NCBI GenBank assembly: GCA_043768765.1
Contig: JAYVKC010000002.1
Location: 18,206-82,205 of the forward strand
Length of the DNA stretch: 64,000 nucleotides
From: Hyphomicrobiales bacterium
GTDB taxonomy: Bacteria; Pseudomonadota; Alphaproteobacteria; Rhizobiales; Aestuariivirgaceae
Reading direction: 5' to 3'
A program made the translations under genes and the position numbers. Each line of letters begins with the position of its first letter. The first letter of the stretch is position 1. The notes under the pieces are model-generated. The model was not told where the DNA came from. It was given only the letters and a program-made list of their open reading frames with translations, and did no database searches. Below are positions 33,009-46,307 of this stretch, in pieces.

Positions 33009-34148
33009 TTAGAATGCGTGCGCACCGCCAAATTCGAGATTGAGCCGCACGCTCAGCACATGGGCTTTGATGTCTTCTTCATCAACCACATAGGTGTAGG
33101 CGGCACCAACAGTCCATGATGAATTGGGCAATCCCAATTCGCTTTCCGGCGCATACAGCACCGACAACTCCGCCAGTGTCGCTGAAGTGTTTGCACCTTC
33201 CACAAAATTTACCTGCCGCGACAATGCCGCTGTCGCCGAAATGTCTTCGACGATATAGGTCGCCATGCCGGTGGCAATCATGGCATTGTCCGGATTGCTG
33301 CCAATATTTTCAATGAACGCCGCTTCACCCAAGAGTCTCAGTTTGGCGTCACCCATATCGAAATTGCCCTGAGCTGCGGCAAGGAAAGCCAATTCATCCT
33401 TGGGGGCGATGTCTTCGTCAGCCTGCTCTTCGGTCTGCACACCATGCTTTTGGTAACGTGCGCCCAGCCTGTAACCGAAATCGCCATCTTCGTGACACTC
33501 GCCAACATCGGCACCCAGGCACCCATCAAGCACCAATGAGACCGAGGAAAGACCCGATGTATTGCCAGCTCCGCCATCGCCCAGCCGTGGAACGTCGCGT
33601 TTTGTAAAATGGGACTTTGCCAGAAAACTGCGATCCACCGTAAACAGACTGCCCGTCAGAACCTGGGCATGGCCCAAGCCGTCGAAAGCCAGTGCTGCCT
33701 CCACTCCCAGGCTTTCATCCATGTCGACATTGCCAGCGAGGTCAGAGGCGTTGATGCCGTCGCCCTGGTCCGACGCAAGACTGAACACGGGAGCGAATTT
33801 TCCGGCCTTCAATGTCAGAGGTTCAAAGGCTATTTCAGCATAGAGCTCGCTTTGATAAGCGCCAATGTTTTCAAAGGTGGAGGACCTGCCATCTTCGGGG
33901 TCAACGACCTGTTCAATGTTGGTGACGGAGACGAACTTGAGGCCATCAACCGGCTGCAAAAATGACTCGATGCCGATTTCCGGCTGCAGAGAATTTTGTT
34001 CCAGCGCGCTGGGCCTGGCCGCAAAAACCCAATCCTCCACCAGACCAAGCGAAACGGTGGTTCCCATGCAGGGAGCTTCGCAATCTTCTGCCACCGCCTG
34101 CGCCGTTGTTGCCATCAAGACAATCGCCGCCACAATCATTATACGCAT
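33009..34148 (-). CDS. Outer-membrane beta-barrel protein (porin-like)
   Basis: About 379 aa from MRIMIVAAIVLMATTAQA (signal peptide). Alternating amphipathic beta-strand pattern. Terminates in ...LEFGGAHAF (C-terminal aromatic residue typical of OM beta-barrels). RBS GGGGAG. Confidence 0.55.
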   Translation of the reverse strand: MRIMIVAAIVLMATTAQAVAEDCEAPCMGTTVSLGLVEDWVFAARPSALEQNSLQPEIGIESFLQPVDGLKFVSVTNIEQVVDPEDGRSSTFENIGAYQSELYAEIAFEPLTLKAGKFAPVFSLASDQGDGINASDLAGNVDMDESLGVEAALAFDGLGHAQVLTGSLFTVDRSFLAKSHFTKRDVPRLGDGGAGNTSGLSSVSLVLDGCLGADVGECHEDGDFGYRLGARYQKHGVQTEEQADEDIAPKDELAFLAAAQGNFDMGDAKLRLLGEAAFIENIGSNPDNAMIATGMATYIVEDISATAALSRQVNFVEGANTSATLAELSVLYAPESELGLPNSSWTVGAAYTYVVDEEDIKAHVLSVRLNLEFGGAHAF

Positions 34149-34259
34149 GCACATCTCCCCGCCGATCCCACGCGGCACTATCCTAACCTCATTACGCGGT
34201 TGGACAATGTTTTCTTTCACGGGACCGGCAGTACCTGCCGGCCCCGTGAATTCAGTGGT

Positions 34260-34958
34260 TTAGTCGGTGCCGAACTTGACCAGTTCGACCCGGACTTTGT
34301 CGACGAGATGTTCTGACAAGGCTTGGCCACCCACATCCGGGCAGTAGTATTTGTTCTCTTTCGCATCTGCTTCCAGCGGTGTCCATTCATACACTTTGGT
34401 GCAATTCTTGAACGTGCCTGCCGCAACTTTCACCGTGAGTCCGGTTTCGAGCACCTTTGCCATGTCCTCGGCCTTGCCCTTGTAAAATTCCATGCGGTAG
34501 GAATCACCCACAACCTGTTTGCCCTTGATCCAGATACCGGGAAGCGCACCATCTTCGCCGGCAATCCATCCACCGGCGTGATCCTTGAATTTTCCGTCCA
34601 CGTAGTTGTCCACCGCTTCACCGAAATACCACACACTGCCATCCTTGTGCTGGGCCAGATAGTCGTTGGTTTCCTCAACCAGCTGTCCGTCCACAAATAC
34701 ACGGTCGTTGTAAATGAGCGTGTCGATGCCCATGATTTTGCGCGTGTCTGGACGGATGCGAATTTCGACTCGTTCCAATCCATCTTCGGTTTTGGCCTCG
34801 TACACCATCAGTTTCCCGGTGGGCAGATTGAACATGGGATTGTCAATCGCAGAAGAAAAATCTGCCGCTTCAATTTTCGGGTTGTAGGCTTCTTCGGCGT
34901 GGGCCATTTGGCTGGTTGCCAGGCATGTTGCTGCCAGCAGAACATATGCAGTTTTCAT
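34260..34958 (-). CDS. Secreted hypothetical protein (signal peptide), function unknown
   Basis: About 232 aa from MKTAYVLLAATCLATSQMAHA, then a soluble domain with no motif I recognise. Confidence 0.5.
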   Translation of the reverse strand: MKTAYVLLAATCLATSQMAHAEEAYNPKIEAADFSSAIDNPMFNLPTGKLMVYEAKTEDGLERVEIRIRPDTRKIMGIDTLIYNDRVFVDGQLVEETNDYLAQHKDGSVWYFGEAVDNYVDGKFKDHAGGWIAGEDGALPGIWIKGKQVVGDSYRMEFYKGKAEDMAKVLETGLTVKVAAGTFKNCTKVYEWTPLEADAKENKYYCPDVGGQALSEHLVDKVRVELVKFGTD

Positions 34959-35041
34959 CGAACTCTCCTGTTGCGAATGTGGAAACCTCAATGCGGGTTT
35001 CACAAGAGTCTACGGAGAACCACGCGGAAATCTTTCACCCG

Positions 35042-35731
35042 TCAGTCAAATTCCGAGACCGTCAGTGCACGGAATGTATCGGGCCCGGTTTGCGCGCCGA
35101 CGACGGCAATGTCACCTTCTTCGAGCAGGGTGTTGTCAAGCACAATCCGTGCCGCTGATACATCGACCGTCCAGACCTTGTCGGTGAAATCCTTGAGTTG
35201 GATTTTGCCATTGCCAAGGTCTTTGATGACGGTGCCACCCAAATGACCCTGCTCCGGCCTGCTCCATTCATCAAATGGCACATACGTTGAAGTGCGATAG
35301 GCGGCGAAGTTGTTGGCCAGATACATGTGCAAACTCCGGCCCGCATCCGTGGCATGCAGAACGGCTCCCAGCAGCACGCTTGCCAGTATCGAAACGCCGG
35401 CCAGCCGCGACGAACTGATCCGGTAACCACGTTTGGTGTGGCGCAAACCGTAGACCGCACTTACTGCAAACAAACCGGCCATCATGAGCCACAGCACCGG
35501 CAGGCCGATCAGGGTTTCGTTGTAGTGGATGTTGTCAAGCACGCGCCAGCCCGTCGCAAAGTAATCGCTGACCACAAACTGGATCATGGCAAAGTTGATT
35601 GCGCCAAGGAGAATGGAGATTATGGCAAGGGCCCAGAACACCGAGCGTTTCGCCAGAAACTGATAAGCCGGTTTCGGTGCAAGTTTTTGCGCCGCGATGG
35701 TTTCAAGGATCTTCTTTTCGAGGTCTGTCAC
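35042..35731 (-). CDS. Four-TM membrane protein translationally coupled to the ECF sigma gene (candidate non-canonical anti-sigma factor)
   Basis: 229 aa. Short cytoplasmic N-terminus, four hydrophobic helices, about 90-aa C-terminal soluble domain. Start overlaps the ECF sigma stop by 4 nt. Confidence 0.4.
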   Translation of the reverse strand: MTDLEKKILETIAAQKLAPKPAYQFLAKRSVFWALAIISILLGAINFAMIQFVVSDYFATGWRVLDNIHYNETLIGLPVLWLMMAGLFAVSAVYGLRHTKRGYRISSSRLAGVSILASVLLGAVLHATDAGRSLHMYLANNFAAYRTSTYVPFDEWSRPEQGHLGGTVIKDLGNGKIQLKDFTDKVWTVDVSAARIVLDNTLLEEGDIAVVGAQTGPDTFRALTVSEFD

Positions 35732-36300
35732 GATTGGCCCCCGGTTGAATCAAATATGTCTTTGAGCCGCTTCAGCCCGCGCTTGAGCAAGGTTGCAACT
35801 GTTCCTGGCGACAGTTTCAGGATGTCGGAAATGTCATCGTAACTCTGGTCTTCAAGATAACGCAGAACCAGCACATCCCGGTACTTCGCATCAAGTGCAT
35901 CAAGGCAAGTCCGGATATGTTCGGCTGACCGGCCTTTCCAAAACAAGGTCGCGGGATCATCGGGATCGGCGACGTGATCGAGAAAGACTTGCGCATCTTC
36001 ACCCGTGACCGTCTGGATGCCGGAATTGGATTTCCGCAGATGGCTGATCGCCTCATTGTGGGCGATCCGGTAAATCCACGGCGCAAAGGCTCGCGTCTGG
36101 TCGAAATCATTCAGGTTGAGATAGGCTTTGATGAACACCTCCTGCAGCACGTCGTCTGTGGCGCTGTTGCGCGTACCGAGAATGCGCTTCACATAACGCC
36201 GCAGCATCGCCTCATGGCGGTTGATCAGCCGTCCATAGGCGTTGGGGTCGCCCAAGGCTGCAATGACGATTTTTTGGTCGGATTCTTCTGTCATCAACAC
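35728..36300 (-). CDS. RNA polymerase ECF-type sigma-70 factor
   Basis: 190 aa. Region 2 motif FAPWIYRIAHNEAISHLRK. Region 4 DVLVLRYLEDQSYDDISDILKLSPGTVATLLKRGLKRL. Confidence 0.85.
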   Translation of the reverse strand: MLMTEESDQKIVIAALGDPNAYGRLINRHEAMLRRYVKRILGTRNSATDDVLQEVFIKAYLNLNDFDQTRAFAPWIYRIAHNEAISHLRKSNSGIQTVTGEDAQVFLDHVADPDDPATLFWKGRSAEHIRTCLDALDAKYRDVLVLRYLEDQSYDDISDILKLSPGTVATLLKRGLKRLKDIFDSTGGQS

Positions 36301-36331
36301 TCTACTATACGCTGTCCGCAGGCATTTGCTT

Positions 36332-36727
36332 TCAGCCGTTCCTGCGCCGGGTCAACTTCAAGCCAGACCAATCCGCATCAACGGCACACACCTTGATATC
36401 AACCAGGCCGATGGACAGTGCCATCGCCCGAATATCATCTTCGCTCAGTCCTTTTGACAATGGCGAGGTTTTCTTGGGCCAAGACACCCACAACATGATG
36501 GCGGGCGGCAGGTGTTTTGACAGGGTGGTGATGTCTTTCAGGTCTTGTTTTTCGATGATGAAAAGATGGATGGCATCAGAATCCTTTGCAGCTTTAACCA
36601 TCACCCAGTCATTGGGGCCGTCGATCAATTGGGAATAGTGTTTCGGTTGGTTGATCGCACACACCTTCATGCCCGGCTTGAAGCCGAGCTTTTTCCAGAG
36701 GGGGGTGCCGGAGTAGCCGGCAAGCAC
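36332..36727 (-). CDS. DUF3052 domain protein
   Basis: AGYSGTPLWKKLGFKPGMKV ... LWVSWPKKTSPL ... VDIKVCAVDADWSGLKL.RRR matches the DUF3052 pattern. Proposed GTG start at 36727 avoids the darG stop (36747). The longest ORF (to 36802) would overlap darG by 56 nt. Confidence 0.5.
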   Translation of the reverse strand: MLAGYSGTPLWKKLGFKPGMKVCAINQPKHYSQLIDGPNDWVMVKAAKDSDAIHLFIIEKQDLKDITTLSKHLPPAIMLWVSWPKKTSPLSKGLSEDDIRAMALSIGLVDIKVCAVDADWSGLKLTRRRNG

Positions 36728-36746
36728 AACCCTTGTGCCCTCGGTC

Positions 36747-37790
36747 TTAACCAGGGTTTGCAATCCAATTTTGCGTACGAAGCCGATCATAGGCAATGCC
36801 AATTTGCCGAAACGAGAAACGCTTCTTGTGATCGTTCCAGCCGTGTGTTTTTTCTACGGCCTCGCTTAACGAAACTGCACTTTCTCGGGCAGCCACCCAA
36901 TGAACAGTAGACAGCAATTCGAGTCCAAACGGCGTTTCAAAACCTTCGACGAGCGTCGCCACCCTATCAAAGTGTGAGACGGTCTCATGCTTGCCGGCCA
37001 GAAACAACTCAGCCTCCTTGAACGCGCCCGGCACGAGCTCCAGCTCCTTTTCTGGCAAATCGCCGCCATCTGCGTAGCCAGACACGAGATGACCCTCGAT
37101 TGCTTTTAGCACATGGCTCAAGTTCTTGGCATAAGGGCCATATGGCGCTTTCTCAAACTTCAGGCGAAGCGGTTCTCCTGCTTCCTGCATGAAGTACATG
37201 AGCTTGTGGATTTCGAGAAGACTGACGAACGGGTCCATCAATCCGCCGAGGTATCTGTGCATCAAGGCCACGAGTGCCGCGCGCCCAGGTGTCATGTCGG
37301 GCACGTCGCGCGCCTTGAAATTGGCTGGAGGTCCATTGGGTTCGTAGATGACGACTCGCAGGTCATCGACACCGCGCAATGCGGCCTCAATCCGTGGCCG
37401 CACTTCGGACCAATCAAGACCGCCCAGTCCGCTGCCGAGCGGCGGGATGGCAATTGAATTGATGCCACGCTCACGGATTTCTTCCGACAAGGCACGAAGG
37501 CCGGAGTCAATATCCTCCATCCTGCTCTTGCCGCGCCAGTGGCGCTTCGTTGGAAAGTTGATGATGAACTTCGGGTTCGTCAGGGTGGCAGTTTCGTAAA
37601 CAAACATCCGGCCCGGTTGCACTTCGTCCCGGCGGCAAGCGGCTTCATAGGCTTTGAAATTGGCAGGGAACCTTTCCTTGAATTGCAATGCAACGCCACG
37701 GCCCATGATGCCGACGCAATTCACCGTGTTGACGAGGGCTTCGACATCCGCCGTCAGCAAGTCTCCCTTGGTGAATTCAATCATGCTCAT
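36747..37790 (-). CDS. darG: DarG antitoxin (macrodomain ADP-ribosyl-DNA hydrolase with C-terminal DarT-binding domain)
   Basis: 347 aa. N-terminal macrodomain FTKGDLLTADVEALVNTVNCVGIMGRGVALQFKERFP, then about 190-aa C-terminal domain. 6 nt downstream of darT. Confidence 0.75.
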   Translation of the reverse strand: MSMIEFTKGDLLTADVEALVNTVNCVGIMGRGVALQFKERFPANFKAYEAACRRDEVQPGRMFVYETATLTNPKFIINFPTKRHWRGKSRMEDIDSGLRALSEEIRERGINSIAIPPLGSGLGGLDWSEVRPRIEAALRGVDDLRVVIYEPNGPPANFKARDVPDMTPGRAALVALMHRYLGGLMDPFVSLLEIHKLMYFMQEAGEPLRLKFEKAPYGPYAKNLSHVLKAIEGHLVSGYADGGDLPEKELELVPGAFKEAELFLAGKHETVSHFDRVATLVEGFETPFGLELLSTVHWVAARESAVSLSEAVEKTHGWNDHKKRFSFRQIGIAYDRLRTQNWIANPG

Positions 37791-37796
37791 CCTCCC

Positions 37797-38456
37797 TCAA
37801 TAGTACCAGTGATTGCACTTTTCGACCACTGGCTTGTGCGACGCACCCTTCAGGGCATCTGTTATCTTTGCAAGCACTCCGCTTGGGGGTGAAAAAGGTT
37901 GGTCGAGATATCCAATCCGTTCAATCATGCGCCAGGGAAACGCTTTTTGCAGCAAGAATTCCGACTGCTTGGCTTCCTTCACCGCTGCTGCGCGAAAGTC
38001 TGTTGCGGCAACAAAGTCCCAGTTTATTTCGCCGAGCTGCTCAATGCCAGTGCGGAACCGCGCGTAAACGGCACCAGCGTTCGACAATGAAACCGCCCAT
38101 TGATGGCCGTTCGCTTCCGCCCATTGGACGACCTGATGCAAGTCAGCTTCCAAATGAACGATGGGCTTTTGCCCGCCTTTGTATTTCAATGCAGCGTCAT
38201 TAGCGCAGTGAATGACATAAAGCATGATTGAACGCGGACACAGATAGAACGGCACATAATCGCCAACGAAAGTACCTGCATGGCAGTCAACAGGCAATGT
38301 GAGCCGTCGTTGTTTGATGCTCTCCATGCCGATCACCGCTCCACCCTGTCGCTGCGTCATCACAGAATCCGGCAGCAACCCGCCCTCACCCACAATCGAT
38401 GCAAGGTTATCGACATGGACAATGTGGTAGATTTTGGGTTGGGCGGGAACGGACAT
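37797..38456 (-). CDS. darT: DarT toxin (DUF4433 DNA ADP-ribosyltransferase)
   Basis: 219 aa. KIYHIVHVDNLASIVGEGGLL N-terminus, GDYVPFYLCPRSIMLY ARTT-like motif and SEFLLQKAFPW region match DarT family hallmarks. Confidence 0.75.
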   Translation of the reverse strand: MSVPAQPKIYHIVHVDNLASIVGEGGLLPDSVMTQRQGGAVIGMESIKQRRLTLPVDCHAGTFVGDYVPFYLCPRSIMLYVIHCANDAALKYKGGQKPIVHLEADLHQVVQWAEANGHQWAVSLSNAGAVYARFRTGIEQLGEINWDFVAATDFRAAAVKEAKQSEFLLQKAFPWRMIERIGYLDQPFSPPSGVLAKITDALKGASHKPVVEKCNHWYY

Positions 38457-38490
38457 TGTGGGCGTAGGATCAATCCATTCGCTTCACAAA

Positions 38491-39099
38491 TCAATGCATT
38501 TGGGCCTTTGTCACCCGTCTCAGCGTCAGATTAATCCGCCCGCCATCGTTCAACAAACTCGATGTCCCGCTGATCACCCGGTCAACGCCGTGATAGCACA
38601 GCCGTGCGTCGCCGCCCATCACCAGCACGTCGCCGGAGTGCAGTTTGATCGTTGACGTTTTCCCGCCGCGTTCCGTACCGCCAATGCGGAACACGGCGGT
38701 GTCGCCCAACGAAATCGAAACCACGGGAGCGGAAAAATCCTCTTCGTCCTTGTCCTGGTGCAGACCCATTTTGGTGCCTGCGGCGTAAAAATTGACGAGG
38801 CAGGCTTCCGGTTCATGCGCGTAGTTCGCAACTTTGCGCCAAAGGTCCAAAACCATGGCAGGAATTGCCGGCCATGGTTTTGCCGTTTCGGGGTGGCGCT
38901 CTTGATATCGGTATCCCGCCCGGTCCGATACCCAACCCAGCGAACCCAGATTGGTCATCTTCACACTGAAGGGTCGCCCGGTGCGCGGCATGATGGGTTG
39001 AAAAAGGGGAGCATCGGCGACCGCAGCCCGCAGCTTCGTCAACAACGCCTCCTGCTCCGCCCGATCCAGCAAACCCGAAAAGTGTCTCAGTCCATTCAT
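38491..39099 (-). CDS. alkB: Alpha-ketoglutarate/Fe(II)-dependent dioxygenase AlkB (oxidative DNA/RNA dealkylase)
   Basis: About 203 aa from MNGLRHFSGLL. 2OG-Fe(II) oxygenase motifs LHQDKDE ... HGV ... R.NLTLRR. 34 nt upstream of darT on the same strand. Confidence 0.8.
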   Translation of the reverse strand: MNGLRHFSGLLDRAEQEALLTKLRAAVADAPLFQPIMPRTGRPFSVKMTNLGSLGWVSDRAGYRYQERHPETAKPWPAIPAMVLDLWRKVANYAHEPEACLVNFYAAGTKMGLHQDKDEEDFSAPVVSISLGDTAVFRIGGTERGGKTSTIKLHSGDVLVMGGDARLCYHGVDRVISGTSSLLNDGGRINLTLRRVTKAQMH

Positions 39100-39121
39100 G
39101 CACAATTTCCCATCACGAATC

Positions 39122-39150
39122 CTTGAACGCCCGCAACCACCCCCCTATAT
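39122..39150 (+). promoter_or_regulatory. Sigma-32 (RpoH)-type heat-shock promoter of dnaK
   Basis: CTTGAA-N13-CCCCCTATAT matches the alphaproteobacterial RpoH consensus CTTGAA-N13/14-CCCCATnT. About 130 nt upstream of the dnaK ATG. Confidence 0.6.
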
Positions 39151-39282
39151 ACGCCCCGAACCAACACGAACATTGGGGTTGCGGGGCTTCAATCCCCCCG
39201 AAATCCCCAAGAATTTCAATCGGAGACGGCGAACTGGCAGTGCCTTGAGGGGCTGCACCCGCTGTCTGCCACAGGAGGTATT

Positions 39283-41217
<1,935 letters not shown>

Positions 41218-41259
41218 ACTGAAACGTGATGCCCGTTTTCGAGAACTATCAATCCCTCA

Positions 41260-41291
41260 ACCGTCATTCCCGCGAAAGCGGGGGTGACGGT
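41260..41291. repeat. Palindromic repeat unit (CCGTCATTCCCGCGAAAGCGGGGGTGACGG) in the dnaK-dnaJ spacer
   Basis: 14-bp stem with GAAA tetraloop. The same arm sequence occurs as an inverted pair at 52552-52636. Confidence 0.6.
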
Positions 41292-41344
41292 TGGTTGGGA
41301 ATGGCGGTGCAATTTTCAGCAAAGACCGATAAGACCTGAAATCC

Positions 41345-42511
41345 ATGGCCAAGCGCGACTACTATGACATTCTGGGTGTGCAAAAAGGTGCCGATGAAAA
41401 GGTGCTGAAAACCGCGTATCGCAACCTGGCCAAAAAGTTTCACCCCGATGCCAACCATGGCAGCAAGGAAACCGATGCCAAGTTCAAGGAGCTGAACGAG
41501 GCCTATGACGTTCTGAAAGACCCGCAAAAAAAGGCAGCCTACGACCGTTTTGGCCATCAGGCCTTTGAGAACGGTGCGGGCGGCAGGCCCGGCGGTGGTG
41601 CCGGCTTTGGACCGGACTTCAATTCATCCATGTCCGACATTTTTGAAGATTTGTTCGGCGATTTTGTGGGCGGTGGCCGCGGCCGCCAACAACGGGGCCG
41701 TGGCGGCCAAGGTGGAAGTGGAGCCCAACGCGGCTCTGATCTGCGCTTCAATCTCGAGATCAATTTGACTGAGGCGTATTCCGGAAAAACCGCGGCTGTG
41801 CGGGTGCCGTCGTCGCAGGCGTGCGATACCTGCAAAGGCTCCGGTGCAAAGCCCGGGACACAACCCAAAACCTGCGGCACCTGCAATGGTGCTGGCGCTG
41901 TGCGCTCGCAATCCGGCTTTTTCACTGTGGAACGTGCCTGCCCAACCTGCCAGGGCCGGGGCCAGGTGATTGCCGATCCGTGCAGCGCTTGCTCGGGCCA
42001 GGGCCGCGTGAACAAGGAACGCAATCTGTCCGTCAATATTCCGGCGGGTGTTGAAGATGGCACGCGCATCCGGCTGGCGGGTGAAGGCGAAGCGGGCTTG
42101 CGCGGCGGACCAACGGGAGACCTCTATATTTTTCTCAGCCTGCGCCCGCATGAATTTTTCCAGCGCGATGGCGCAGACCTGTTTTGCAAAGTACCGATCT
42201 CGATGACGGTGGCATCGCTCGGCGGTGAAATTGAAGTGCCCACCATCGACGGCAAGAAAGCCCGCGTCACTGTTCCCGAGGGCACGCAAAACGCCAAGCA
42301 GTTCCGCCTGAAATCCAAAGGCATGCCGGTGCTCAGGTCATCGCAGCATGGCGACATGTACATCCAGGTGAGTGTCGAAACGCCAGTGAACCTGACTCGG
42401 CGGCAACGCGAGCTGTTGAAAGAGTTCGACACTGAAGCGCGCAACAACTCGCCCGAAAGCGAGGGGTTCTTTGCCAAGGCCAAGGCGTTCTGGGATGGAT
42501 TTGGGGTGTAG
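41345..42511 (+). CDS. dnaJ: Molecular chaperone DnaJ
   Basis: 388 aa. J-domain HPD motif (FHPDAN). Gly-rich linker. Four CxxCxGxG zinc-finger repeats. Confidence 0.95.
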
Positions 42512-43643: not shown

Positions 43644-44264
43644 ATGAGTGGAACCCTCGTCCTCGTGCGGCACGGACAAAGCGACTGGAATTTGAAGAAC
43701 CTTTTTACCGGCTGGAAAGATCCCGATCTCTCACCCCAAGGTGTTGAAGAGGCGAAAGCCGCAGGCCAGCGCCTGAAGGAGAAAGGCTTGAGGTTTGATA
43801 TGTGCTTTACGTCGGCACTCACCCGCGCCCAGCACACATTGCAATTGATCCTCACGGAACTCACTCAAACCGGACTGCCCGAAACACGGGACCAGGCTTT
43901 GAATGAACGTGATTATGGCGAGTTGACCGGCCTCAACAAGGACGACGCCCGCAAAAAGTGGGGCGAAGAACAGGTGTTGATCTGGCGGCGGTCCTTCGAT
44001 GTGCCGCCGCCTGGCGGGGAGTCATTGAAGGACACGCTGGCGCGTTCACTGCCCTACTACTTGCATCACATCCAGCCCCATGTGCTCGAGGGCAAAACCG
44101 TGCTGGTGGCAGCACACGGCAATTCCCTGCGCTCCTTGATCATGGCGATTGAGGGCATGACACCGGCGCAAATCCTGAAACGCGAACTCGAAACGGGAAT
44201 CCCTGTGGTTTACAAACTCCGGGCGAATTCACTGCCGGTTTCGGTGGACGTTCTCTCAGGCTGA
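43644..44264 (+). CDS. gpmA: 2,3-bisphosphoglycerate-dependent phosphoglycerate mutase
   Basis: 206 aa. [20 protein letters not shown] catalytic His motif. Confidence 0.9.
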
Positions 44265-45104
44265 AAGCCGCCCTGCCTCCCACCCCAATATTGCCCGCTT
44301 GCGCGTCAGGCCCCAGTGGTAGCCCGTGAGGTCACCGGATTTTCCGATAACCCGGTGGCAGGGCACAACAAACGAAATGGGATTCTTGCCTACCGCAGCA
44401 CCGATGGCCCGCGCCGCCTTGGGCTTGCCGATGTTGGCAGCGATATCACCGTAGGTGGTAAACTTGCCCATGGGAATTTTCAGGAGTGTTTCCCACACGC
44501 GGATTTCAAAATCAGTGCCGATGAACGTGATCCGCACCGGATCATTGCGCTGCCAGTGCTCGCGGGAAAAAATGCGGGCGGCAAAGGGAGCTGTCTTGGC
44601 AGAATCTTCGGCATAGCGGGCATTGGGCCAGCGCCGCACCATGTCGGCCAGCGCCTCGGCCTCTTCGCCGATGTCGCAAAACCCCATGCCGCACATGCCG
44701 TATTGCGTGACCAGCACCAGCGCCAAGCCAAAGGGCGAGGGATGATAGCCATACCAAATTTCCAGTCCTTCACCCTTGTTCTTGTAACTACCGGGCGACA
44801 TGCCTTCGTGGGTGACAAAAAGGTCATGCAATCGGCCCGGCCCGGAAAGCCCCAGTTCGAGTGACGCATCGAGGATGCTGGCAGAATCCGCCAGCATGGC
44901 CTTGGCGTGGTCCAGCGTCAGCGCCTGCAGAAAGGCTTTCGGTGTCAGCCCCGCCCACCGCGTGAACAAGCGCTGCAACCCTTCCGGATTCATCTTGGCG
45001 CGCGCCGCAATCACCTCAAGCGATGGCTGGTCGCGCCAATTTTCGGTGATGAAGGAAAGAACATCCTTCACTTTGCTGTAATCATCGAGTTGGGAATGTG
45101 TCAT
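44256..45104 (-). CDS. AraC-family HTH fused to methylated-DNA-protein-cysteine methyltransferase (Ada/Ogt-like regulator)
   Basis: About 282 aa from [12 protein letters not shown]. AraC HTH ([27 protein letters not shown]). C-terminal MGMT active site [11 protein letters not shown]. Confidence 0.75.
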
Positions 45105-45653: not shown

Positions 45654-46307
45654 ATGCCCAGACGCCTCAAGCCGCCCGAAATCGAAGCCATGTTCAGCCG
45701 GTTCCGCACGATGAATCCGGAACCGAAAGGTGAACTCCATTCGGTCAACGCATTCACGTTTCTTGTGGCTGTGGTCCTTTCGGCCCAAGCCACTGATGAA
45801 GGTGTGAACAGGGCCACGGGGCCATTGTTTCGGATCGCTGATACGCCGGAAAAGATGCTGGCACTCGGCGTTGACGGGGTGACCGAGCATGTCAAGTCCA
45901 TTGGCCTGTTTCGCGGCAAGGCCAAAAATGTTGTTGCCCTGTCGCGGCAATTGATTGACCACCACCAAAGCCAGGTGCCGCATGACCGCGCAGCCCTTGA
46001 AGCGCTTCCGGGCGTTGGCCGGAAAACCGCCAATGTCGTTCTGAACACGGTGTTCGGCGAGCCGACCATTGCAGTGGACACGCATCTCTTTCGTTTGGGA
46101 AACCGATTGGGTTTGGCACCGGGCAAGGATGTTGCCGAAGTGGAACGGAAGCTGCTGAAAGTCATTCCGGAAACCTACCTGCGCCATGCCCACCACTGGC
46201 TCATTCTGCACGGCCGCTATGTGTGCAAGGCGCGAAAGCCGGAATGCTGGCGCTGTGCCATTGCCGACGTATGCACATTCAAGCCGAAGTCCGCGCCACC
46301 CGTTTGA
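45654..46307 (+). CDS. nth: Endonuclease III
   Basis: 217 aa. HhH-GPD motif LPGVGRKTANVVL. 4Fe-4S cluster CxxxxxxCxxCxxxxxC at the C-terminus (CKARKPECWRCAIADVC). Confidence 0.9.
   Translation: MPRRLKPPEIEAMFSRFRTMNPEPKGELHSVNAFTFLVAVVLSAQATDEGVNRATGPLFRIADTPEKMLALGVDGVTEHVKSIGLFRGKAKNVVALSRQLIDHHQSQVPHDRAALEALPGVGRKTANVVLNTVFGEPTIAVDTHLFRLGNRLGLAPGKDVAEVERKLLKVIPETYLRHAHHWLILHGRYVCKARKPECWRCAIADVCTFKPKSAPPV

What the first reader, a model, noticed from the sequence alone, without database searches (positions are those of the whole stretch)
38491..39105. alkB placed directly upstream of darT: a candidate AlkB-DarT-DarG-DUF3052 operon
A canonical Fe(II)/2-oxoglutarate dealkylating dioxygenase (motifs LHQDKDE ... 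HGV ... NLTLRR) ends 34 nt before the darT start on the same strand. Any alkB promoter would lie in the spacer shared with the divergent dnaK RpoH promoter. AlkB removes alkyl lesions from ssDNA and RNA, the same single-stranded substrate class that DarT modifies. As far as I know, an alkB-darTG linkage has not been described. It could mean coordinated lesion handling, or a stress-inducible context for the toxin.
Basis: inference. Interest (0 to 1): 0.55.

Follow-up and report, generated by a model that had tools for sequence, protein, structure and literature searches.

The report
DarTG cassette inserted behind housekeeping alkB
A real DNA-repair gene (alkB) does sit 34 bases upstream of a DarT/DarG toxin-antitoxin pair, but comparison with relatives suggests the pair was inserted into an older alkB operon beside dnaK, so the adjacency looks like an insertion history, not a designed partnership.

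Summary
An intact AlkB-family dioxygenase gene (38491-39099, minus strand) ends 34 nt before an intact darT. darG and a small DUF3052-like gene follow on the same strand, with no terminator between them.

- In the relatives examined, alkB is the conserved divergent neighbour of dnaK-dnaJ. This holds in three relatives that have no darTG.
- In one of those relatives (L007), alkB overlaps the start of the DUF3052-like gene. That pair is the best candidate for the native operon, and in the window darTG sits exactly between the two genes.
- The alkB-darT junction recurs in three other related lineages, but the spacer is alignable in all four. I read this as one origin rather than repeated selection.
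- Of 160 other DarT loci surveyed, only one carries alkB, and it has that same junction. The usual context is hsdS-darT-darG-hsdR.
- The window's AlkB is 83-85% identical to the AlkB of its closest darTG-less relative, so nothing suggests specialisation.

Co-transcription from the alkB promoter is plausible but inferred. A functional AlkB-DarT link is unsupported. This is a new genomic context for a known system, of low to moderate interest.

The parts
38491..39099 (-). alkB: AlkB-family Fe(II)/2-oxoglutarate dioxygenase, 202 aa. The mechanical ORF extends to a TTG at 39105.
   Evidence: Pfam PF13532 3.5e-59, full length. E. coli AlkB structures 1.7e-42 with HxD..H and RxNLTxR kept. NCBIfam AlkB equivalog models are hit at 1e-59 but below their strict cut-offs. 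It is 85/81/75% identical (tblastn) to the AlkB of darTG-less relatives L006/L007/L009, each divergent from dnaKJ.
38457..38490 (-). 34-nt alkB-darT spacer: no Shine-Dalgarno sequence, no hairpin, no terminator
   Evidence: Sequence read. Terminator scan. Fold z=+0.70. Alignable with the spacers of L178, L011 and L026, with an invariant TTGATTT at the alkB stop.
37797..38456 (-). darT: ssDNA thymidine ADP-ribosyltransferase toxin, DarT2 type, 219 aa
   Evidence: Pfam DarT 1.7e-51. NCBIfam NF048013 204.8 bits, above the cut-off of 150. PADLOC DarT 2.6e-58. Thermus DarT 7OMV 1.5e-28; by my reading of the alignment and recalled residue numbering, the catalytic Glu is kept (KQSEFL).
36747..37790 (-). 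darG: macrodomain ADP-ribosylglycohydrolase antitoxin. The probable start is the ATG at 37784, giving 345 aa.
   Evidence: Pfam Macro 3e-25. NCBIfam NF048014 461.9 bits, above the cut-off of 250, over profile positions 1-338/338. PADLOC DarG 1.3e-136. 80-86% identical to DarG in alkB-linked, phd-linked and hsdS-remnant contexts, and 74% to the hsdS-linked L004.
36332..36727 (-). orf4: DUF3052-like gene of about 131 aa with a Rossmann / methyltransferase-like fold. It is the apparent native downstream partner of alkB. Longer ORFs starting at 36790 or 36802 run back into darG.
   Evidence: Homologues are 130-137 aa and cover only about 84% of the 152-aa reading. In L007/L008 its GTG start overlaps the alkB stop as GTGA. 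PF11253 hit at 16 bits, below the gathering score of 22.7, but found in all 26 members. AlphaFold pLDDT 90, class-I methyltransferase-like fold with TM about 0.55.
39100..39282 (.). alkB-dnaK divergent spacer. It holds a sigma-32-like dnaK promoter (CTTGAA 39122-39127, CCCCTATAT 39142-39150, plus strand) and a GANTC site at 39117-39121.
   Evidence: Sequence. The block is invariant in the window, L006, L007, L011 and L009. The match to the sigma-32 consensus is judged from my own knowledge.
39283..41217 (+). dnaK, followed by dnaJ at 41345-42511: the conserved divergent neighbour of alkB
   Evidence: DnaK identity to the window: L006 97%, L007 93%, L011 90%, L009 88%.

Best explanation
A DarTG2-type toxin-antitoxin cassette of about 1.76 kb (spacer, darT, darG) sits inside what looks like a pre-existing two-gene operon, alkB plus a DUF3052-like gene. 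That operon lies divergently beside dnaK-dnaJ in this group of Hyphomicrobiales-like alphaproteobacteria.

AlkB here is the ordinary housekeeping alkylation-repair dioxygenase. DarT ADP-ribosylates thymidine in single-stranded DNA, and DarG reverses this and neutralises DarT, as in other DarTG2 systems.

This DarTG family is usually packed tightly behind an upstream gene: hsdS in type I restriction-modification operons, or a phd-like gene. It shows no obvious promoter, ribosome-binding site or terminator of its own. The cassette in the window is therefore most likely read through from the alkB promoter, and the downstream DUF3052-like gene still depends on that read-through.

On this reading, alkB-darT-darG-orf4 is a transcription unit created by insertion and then inherited, or passed between relatives by homologous recombination. 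It is not a functional partnership between AlkB and DarT.

Shown: the gene identities, the geometry, the synteny, the empty sites, the alignable junctions and the rarity of the linkage elsewhere. Inferred: the direction of the event (insertion), co-transcription, and the absence of functional coupling.
For: **Gene identities and intact motifs:**

**alkB is divergent from dnaKJ in every lineage where the upstream side is visible**
- These are the window, L006, L007, L009, L011-13 and L178.
- The dnaK promoter block is invariant across five of them.

**Relatives without darTG**
- L006, L007 and L009 have alkB but no darTG. Their DnaK is 97, 93 and 88% identical to the window's.
- In L007/L008 the alkB stop overlaps the GTG start of the orf4 homologue.
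- Thirteen equal contig lengths are shared between the AlkB and orf4 hit lists. Several of these contigs are only 1.1-3.4 kb, which implies the pair is commonly adjacent.

**Survey**
- Of 160 DarT loci from 80 species genomes and 80 metagenome contigs, only L026 has alkB. 132 of the 160 have at least 700 nt of sequence upstream of darT.
- 37 of the 160 carry hsdM/hsdS, and in 26 hsdS lies immediately upstream of darT.
- This matches the published EPEC arrangement hsdS-darTG2-hsdR (PMC12255303).

**Single origin of the junction:** the four alkB-darT spacers align.

**DarT tree:** the alkB-linked darT genes group at 99% bootstrap, but the group includes the hsdS-linked L010, which is sister to L011.

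**Possible co-transcription:** there is no terminator or hairpin in the spacer, the gaps are short, and no flanking repeats or compositional anomaly were found.

**No sign of specialisation:** the window's AlkB is 83-85% identical to that of darTG-less L006.
Against: - The junction has persisted in two AlkB clades that are only 62-69% identical to each other. All three members of the second clade keep alkB-darT-darG. Selection for the linkage is therefore not excluded.
- The direction of the event (insertion versus repeated loss) rests on parsimony and on the intact overlapping alkB-orf4 junction in L007.
- Synonymous sites are near saturation, so the events cannot be dated.
- Co-transcription is not demonstrated. 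The spacer has a conserved TTGATT...GATTC pattern and no Shine-Dalgarno sequence, which could equally mean an internal promoter giving a leaderless darT mRNA.
- The promoter and terminator scans are simple consensus scans.
- Each survey returned only the best 80 of about 570 confirmed candidates.
Confidence: 0.68

Rival explanations
1. Functional partnership. AlkB and DarTG are kept together because they act on the same substrate class. For example, AlkB might clear or oxidatively reverse DarT-type N3-thymine adducts in ssDNA as a back-up to DarG. Alternatively, DarT activity might be tuned to alkylation or replication stress through the alkB promoter.
For: - The genes share a strand, with a 34-nt gap and no terminator.
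- The junction is retained in four lineages, across AlkB clades only 62-69% identical.
- By established knowledge, AlkB repairs N3-alkylated pyrimidines, including 3-methylthymine, in ssDNA, and DarT2 links ADP-ribose to thymidine in ssDNA (PMC5179494, PMC11543638). The statement that the linkage is at N3 of thymine is from my own knowledge.
- There is a precedent for a housekeeping-linked DarTG with a physiological role: the M. tuberculosis dnaB-darT-darG unit (PMC12170906).
Against: - 159 of 160 other DarT loci lack alkB.
- All the junctions share one origin.
- The AlkB is the unmodified housekeeping orthologue of darTG-less relatives, 83-85% identical, in the same dnaK-divergent position.
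- DarG already provides the reversal activity.
- In L026 the DarT has lost 10 of 74 family-invariant residues while DarG stays conserved. This looks like decay of the toxin rather than maintenance of a partnership.
- AlkB matches no PADLOC defence model.
Confidence: 0.07
2. Adjacent but transcriptionally independent. darTG has its own promoter in the alkB 3' end or the spacer, possibly giving a leaderless darT mRNA and autoregulated as in many toxin-antitoxin systems. alkB transcription contributes little to darTG expression.
For: - There is no Shine-Dalgarno sequence before darT.
- A TTGATT at the alkB stop and a GATTC/GATCC element about 18 nt downstream are conserved in four lineages.
- Toxin-antitoxin modules are commonly autoregulated (general knowledge).
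Against: - The consensus promoter scan found nothing on the minus strand between 38457 and 38700.
- The candidate -10 element is a poor match.
- Relatives of this DarTG lie 2-11 nt behind hsdS or a phd-like gene, with no room for a promoter.
- EPEC DarTG2 is driven from the island promoter upstream of rptR (PMC12255303).
- The downstream orf4 must still be expressed through the cassette.
Confidence: 0.22
3. Insertion hot spot with repeated independent captures. The alkB 3' flank repeatedly attracts cassettes, so darTG landed there more than once.
For: - The content between alkB and orf4 varies among relatives: nothing (L007); darTG (window); darTG plus an HbpS-like gene (L178, L011, L026); and glyoxalase plus HbpS-like plus metallophosphatase genes (L006).
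- The window's AlkB belongs to a different AlkB clade from the other three darTG carriers.
- The hsdS-linked L010 darT nests inside the alkB-linked clade.
Against: - The alkB-darT spacer is alignable in all four lineages, which argues for one junction that was later inherited or moved by homologous recombination.
- No flanking direct or inverted repeats, integrase or att-like sites were found.
Confidence: 0.1

Closest known systems
DarTG2 toxin-antitoxin / anti-phage system (Thermus, M. tuberculosis, EPEC)
   Same: - DarT and DarG both reach the NCBIfam equivalog cut-offs.
- Toxin-then-antitoxin order with a 12-nt gap.
- Macrodomain antitoxin, which defines the DarTG2 class (PMC11543638).
- The catalytic Glu appears to be kept.
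   Different: Here the pair is not in a defence island or a restriction-modification operon. It lies between two housekeeping genes next to dnaKJ. No phage-defence or toxicity data exist for it.
EPEC hsdM-hsdS-darT-darG-hsdR island (RRDM; PMC12255303)
   Same: - The cassette is wedged inside a host operon and relies on an upstream promoter.
- The same embedding occurs in 26-37 of the 160 surveyed relatives and in the window's close DarT relatives L004 and L010.
   Different: [quoted passage not shown] No RptR-like repressor is present.
M. tuberculosis dnaB-darT-darG transcription unit (PMC12170906)
   Same: A chromosomal DarTG outside defence islands, downstream of and probably co-transcribed with a DNA-metabolism gene.
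   Different: In M. tuberculosis the linkage is ubiquitous in the complex and has a demonstrated role in oriC ADP-ribosylation. Here the linkage is patchy among close relatives and has no functional data.
Caulobacter crescentus alkB (CC0009)
   Same: - A housekeeping AlkB in an alphaproteobacterium. Its mutant is MMS-sensitive and its transcription is cell-cycle regulated (PMC1839093, PMC6813329).
- From my own recollection of Colombi & Gomes 1997 (the paper is not held), it lies upstream of and divergent from dnaKJ, as in the window.
   Different: No darTG follows it there, as far as I know. The regulation of the window's alkB is unknown.

Membership tests
AlkB-family Fe(II)/2OG dioxygenase | Full-length 2OG-FeII_Oxy_2 domain | tested here: met
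   PF13532 3.5e-59, residues 5-196 against profile positions 1-194/194.
AlkB-family Fe(II)/2OG dioxygenase | HxD...H iron triad and the RxNxTxR 2-oxoglutarate motif | tested here: met
   LHQDKDE, CYHG and RINLTLRR align with the corresponding E. coli AlkB segments. Residue roles are from established knowledge.
AlkB-family Fe(II)/2OG dioxygenase | Reaches the NCBIfam AlkB equivalog cut-off (strict orthology to E. coli AlkB) | tested here: not met
   NF011930 201.6 bits against a cut-off of 267. TIGR00568 170.9 bits against 231. I therefore file it as AlkB family, not as a proven equivalog.
AlkB-family Fe(II)/2OG dioxygenase | Oxidative dealkylation activity on ssDNA or RNA | not testable with these tools
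   Needs an enzyme assay or MMS-sensitivity genetics.
DarTG2 toxin-antitoxin | DarT ADP-ribosyltransferase with the catalytic Glu | tested here: met
   NF048013 204.8 bits, above 150. The Glu in KQSEFL aligns with the position that I recall as the E160A mutation in 7OMV. None of the 74 family-invariant columns is changed.
DarTG2 toxin-antitoxin | Adjacent DarG with an N-terminal macrodomain and a C-terminal DarT-binding domain | tested here: met
   NF048014 461.9 bits, above 250, covering profile positions 1-338/338. Macro domain 3e-25. The gene starts 12 nt after darT.
DarTG2 toxin-antitoxin | Toxicity of DarT and its neutralisation by DarG; thymidine ADP-ribosylation | not testable with these tools
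   Needs expression and biochemistry.
Single operon alkB-darT-darG-orf4 | Same strand, short gaps, no intrinsic terminator between the genes | tested here: met
   Gaps of 34, 12 and about 19 nt. No terminator-like site in the gaps. Spacer fold z=+0.70.
Single operon alkB-darT-darG-orf4 | One transcript spanning the junctions | not testable with these tools
   No transcriptome data are available. This is an inference only.
Single operon alkB-darT-darG-orf4 | Gene order conserved in other genomes | tested here: inconclusive
   alkB-darT-darG is found in L178/179, L011-13 and L026. There it is followed by an HbpS-like gene, and orf4 survives only as remnants. The order is absent from the closest relatives L006 and L007.
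Functionally linked gene pair (guilt by association, AlkB with DarT) | Association recurs independently, at non-homologous junctions or in unrelated clades | tested here: not met
   Only 1 of 160 surveyed DarT loci has alkB. All four junctions are alignable.
DUF3052 (PF11253), for orf4 | Reaches the Pfam gathering score | tested here: not met
   16 bits against 22.7. All 26 members give the same weak hit (best E=3.6e-4), and NCBI names one homologue 'DUF3052 family protein'. I call it a distant relative, not a member by the curated cut-off.

The most novel reading that the evidence does not exclude
The darTG cassette has been domesticated under the alkB promoter. In Caulobacter that promoter is cell-cycle / GcrA-CcrM regulated, and in the window a conserved GANTC site lies in the alkB-dnaK spacer. 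DarT activity on ssDNA would then be timed to replication, as proposed for dnaB-darTG in M. tuberculosis. In addition, AlkB, which attacks N3-substituted pyrimidines in ssDNA, might act as an oxidative back-up eraser of thymine-N3 ADP-ribose. Either outcome would be a new regulatory or repair link for DNA ADP-ribosylation.
Probability: 0.06. Interest if true: 0.75.

Novelty: new member of a known kind. Interest (0 to 1): 0.22.

Why it matters
If the reading given here is right, the locus is mainly a clean natural example of how a DarTG2 cassette rides inside host operons. Here the host is a DNA-repair operon next to the heat-shock genes; elsewhere it is a type I restriction-modification operon.

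It is also a caution against reading function from a single adjacency.

The locus would matter more if alkB-promoter control or AlkB chemistry turned out to affect DNA ADP-ribosylation. That would add a second housekeeping-linked DarTG after M. tuberculosis dnaB-darTG, or a new way of erasing the modification. The cheap experiments listed under next steps would settle this.

The by-product may be the more general lead: a conserved, translationally coupled pair of alkB and a DUF3052-like gene with a methyltransferase-like fold.

Tried and rejected
- **Target-site duplications or terminal repeats around the cassette:** only short, chance-level matches were found.
- **Known RNA families across 34000-42000:** none reached the gathering score.
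- **Compositional anomaly of darTG:** none. GC is 0.53-0.59, like the flanks.
- **Dating darTG against alkB with four-fold degenerate sites:** most pairs fall in the 33-57% identity range, which I read as near saturation and uninformative. The exception is L010-L011 darT at 74%.
- **Consensus promoter scan:** only one hit, inside orf4, at chance level.
- **Colombi & Gomes 1997 (PMC179090):** the paper is not held. The Caulobacter alkB/dnaK arrangement is therefore cited from memory, plus the locus tag CC0009.
- **First bootstrap script:** it timed out and was replaced by a custom neighbour-joining bootstrap.
- **A darG / orf4 overlap:** considered and rejected. The family alignment shows the first roughly 20 residues of the long ORF are not conserved and are simply darG coding sequence read in another frame.
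- **AlkB or orf4 as known defence-system components:** considered and rejected. Neither matches a PADLOC model.

Full report
**1. What is in the window**

On the minus strand the genes run alkB, darT, darG and a small ORF that I call orf4.
- alkB is the mechanical ORF 38491-39105. Its likely start is the ATG at 39099, giving 202 aa as called in the public record.
- A 34-nt spacer follows at 38457-38490.
- darT is 37797-38456.
- darG is 36747-37790, with a probable start at 37784.
- An ECF sigma / anti-sigma pair follows orf4.
- dnaK (39283-41217) and dnaJ are divergent on the plus strand.

AlkB is a full-length 2OG-FeII_Oxy_2 domain (3.5e-59). It stays below NCBIfam's strict AlkB equivalog cut-offs, so I call it AlkB family.

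DarT and DarG both exceed their NCBIfam equivalog cut-offs and match the PADLOC DarT and DarG models. DarT appears to keep the catalytic Glu when aligned to Thermus DarT. A macrodomain antitoxin places the pair in the DarTG2 class, which modifies thymidine (PMC11543638).

The 34-nt gap is exact. It contains no terminator-like site and folds no better than shuffled sequence (z=+0.70).

**2. What alkB's neighbours look like in relatives**

The window is a metagenome scaffold. I read the contexts of its closest AlkB homologues:
- L006: AlkB 85% identical, DnaK 97%.
- L007/L008: AlkB 81%, DnaK 93%.
- L009, an Aestuariivirga MAG: AlkB 75%, DnaK 88%.

In all of them alkB is divergent from dnaK-dnaJ. 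The spacer carries the same invariant sigma-32-like block. None of them has darTG.

What follows alkB is variable:
- In L007/L008 it is the orf4 homologue, whose GTG start overlaps the alkB stop (GTGA).
- In L006 it is a glyoxalase gene, an HbpS-like gene, a metallophosphatase gene and then orf4.
- In L009 it is unrelated genes.

Equal contig lengths link 13 entries of the AlkB and orf4 hit lists, including contigs of only 1.1-3.4 kb. This implies that alkB-orf4 adjacency is common in this clade (an inference, not verified contig by contig).

The orf4 family is about 131 aa long. The first roughly 20 residues of the long ORF in the window are darG coding sequence read in another frame, so the real start is probably the GTG at 36727, 19 nt after the darG stop.

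In the window, then, darTG occupies exactly the position between alkB and what appears to be its native, translationally coupled partner.

**3. Does alkB-darT recur?**

From the DarT side, the contexts are as follows.
- P0003 (85% identical, L178/179) and P0004 (84%, L011-13) show dnaK<>alkB-darT-darG with a 34-35-nt gap, followed by an HbpS-like gene.
- P0002 (88%, L010) lies 2 nt behind an hsdS-type C-terminus.
- P0005 (80%) lies behind a relic of the same hsdS end.
- P0006-P0008 (76-79%) lie behind a phd-like gene in integrase / TnsA-like islands.
- The Agrobacterium homologue sits between hsdS and hsdR, which is the arrangement published for EPEC DarTG2 (PMC12255303).

I then surveyed 160 further DarT loci: 80 species-representative genomes and 80 metagenome contigs.
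- tblastn found alkB in only one of them, L026, a Hyphomicrobiales MAG, directly upstream of darT.
- 37 loci carry hsdM/hsdS, and in 26 of them hsdS is immediately upstream of darT.
- 132 of the 160 loci had at least 700 nt of sequence upstream of darT, so absence of alkB is meaningful for most of them.

**4. One origin or several?**

The alkB-darT spacers of the window, L178, L011 and L026 align, with an invariant TTGATTT at the alkB stop and shared downstream blocks. I therefore treat the junction as having arisen once.

The AlkB proteins fall into two clades:
- Clade 1 is the window, L006, L007 and L009, which are 75-83% identical to one another.
- Clade 2 is L178, L011 and L026, which are 74-80% identical to one another.
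- Identity between the clades is 62-69%.

All three members of clade 2 carry darTG, an HbpS-like gene and (in L178 and L026) orf4 remnants. In clade 1 only the window carries darTG. Either the cassette is ancestral and was lost three times, or the window acquired it from a clade-2-like relative by homologous recombination. I favour the second, because L007 keeps an intact overlapping alkB-orf4 junction that a deletion would be unlikely to recreate. It is not proven: four-fold degenerate sites are near saturation, so the events cannot be dated.

In a codon-bootstrap neighbour-joining tree, {window, L178, L011, L010} group at 99%. However, the hsdS-linked L010 is sister to the alkB-linked L011 (100% bootstrap; 74% identity at four-fold sites). 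darTG alleles therefore move between contexts.

No flanking repeats, integrase or compositional anomaly marks the cassette in the window.

**5. How it most likely works**

This DarTG family is normally packed 2-11 nt behind an upstream gene, and in EPEC it is driven by the island's upstream promoter. The window's darT has no Shine-Dalgarno sequence, no consensus promoter and no terminator in front of it, and orf4 still needs expression from upstream.

The simplest model is read-through from the alkB promoter. That promoter must lie within the 183-nt spacer shared with the conserved sigma-32-type dnaK promoter. This is an inference. The alternative is an internal promoter at the conserved TTGATT...GATTC elements, giving a leaderless darT mRNA. 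I rate that at about 0.2.

**6. Is there a functional AlkB-DarT link?**

The chemistry is suggestive. AlkB acts on N3-alkyl pyrimidines in ssDNA, and DarT2 modifies thymidine in ssDNA. M. tuberculosis shows that a housekeeping-linked DarTG can have a physiological role (the dnaB-darT-darG unit; PMC12170906).

But nothing here points to coupling.
- The AlkB is the same orthologue, in the same place, as in darTG-less relatives.
- The association is confined to one junction in one clade.
- In L026, DarT has lost 10 of 74 family-invariant residues while DarG stays 81% identical. That looks like decay of the toxin.

I put the functional-partnership reading at about 0.07.

**7. Novelty and verdict**

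No paper in the library describes an alkB-darTG linkage, so the context is new. The components and the embedded-cassette behaviour are known.

My verdict is a new member of a known kind, in a new but probably incidental context. I score interest at 0.22.

The most useful by-product is the conserved pair of alkB and a DUF3052-like gene. The latter models confidently (pLDDT 90) as a minimal Rossmann / methyltransferase-like fold.

Noticed in passing
window 36332-36727 (-); L007 10615-11025; L006 12579-13028: A strongly conserved protein of about 131 aa (GYSGTPLWKKLGFK...MLWVSWPKK...GLVD.KVCAVD..WSGLKL) is alkB's apparent native partner. It is translationally coupled to alkB in L007 (GTGA overlap). 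It matches DUF3052 only below threshold. It models at pLDDT 90 as a minimal class-I methyltransferase-like Rossmann fold; by eye, the sequence lacks a glycine-rich SAM loop. A demethylase paired with a methyltransferase-like protein of unknown function may deserve its own study.
   Followed up: partly
L026 446-1102 (darT) and 1115-2161 (darG): In this Hyphomicrobiales MAG the alkB-linked DarT is only 61-63% identical to its relatives. It has replaced 10 of 74 family-invariant residues (for example R50A, F70L, Y71N, S125G, G128R), while DarG stays about 81% identical. Its alkB reading frame also runs on through the spacer. This could be toxin decay or assembly error.
   Followed up: partly
L010 1-716 versus L011 3055-3711: The hsdS-linked darT of L010 and the alkB-linked darT of L011 are sisters: 90% amino-acid identity, 74% identity at four-fold sites and 100% bootstrap. 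This implies fairly recent exchange of darTG alleles between a type I restriction-modification context and the alkB context.
   Followed up: partly
window 39117-39121 and the whole window: GANTC, which I know as the CcrM methylation motif, is strongly depleted in the window: 111 sites against 248 +/- 15 expected. One site lies between the dnaK -35 element and the alkB start and is kept in four of five lineages. The clade-2 alkB-darT spacers also carry a conserved GATTC. This may point to cell-cycle (GcrA/CcrM-type) control, as reported for Caulobacter alkB.
   Followed up: partly
window 39122-39150 (+): A sigma-32-type promoter, CTTGAA-N14-CCCCTATAT, lies upstream of dnaK and is invariant in five lineages. 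The alkB start codon is only about 20 nt from its -35 element, so the two divergent promoters must interdigitate.
   Followed up: partly
L003 9780-9989; L014 5195-5404; L015 5894-6109: Island-borne close relatives of this DarTG carry a PhdYeFM-type antitoxin gene 2-11 nt upstream of darT. They sit next to tyrosine integrases and a TnsA-like / ResIII helicase. This is a three-gene phd-darT-darG module.
   Followed up: no
window 44256-45104 (-) and about 45654-46307 (+): An Ada-like AraC-HTH plus O6-methylguanine methyltransferase gene and an HhH-GPD glycosylase gene lie just beyond dnaKJ-dapB-gpmA. Alkylation-repair genes therefore flank the heat-shock operon on both sides. L007 also has the Ada-like gene in this position.
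   Followed up: no
window 35042-36300 (-): An ECF sigma factor (Sigma70_r2/r4) and an overlapping 229-aa gene, which I take to be a membrane anti-sigma factor, follow orf4 on the same strand. Two ORFs without Pfam matches and a Band_7 protein come next, before grpE-hrcA. This whole stretch is absent from the sister lineage L006.
   Followed up: no
L006 10596-13028; L011 4785-5225; L178 2611-3148: The segment between alkB and orf4/grpE is a variable slot among relatives. L178 and L026 keep only C-terminal or internally deleted remnants of orf4 after an HbpS-like gene.
   Followed up: partly
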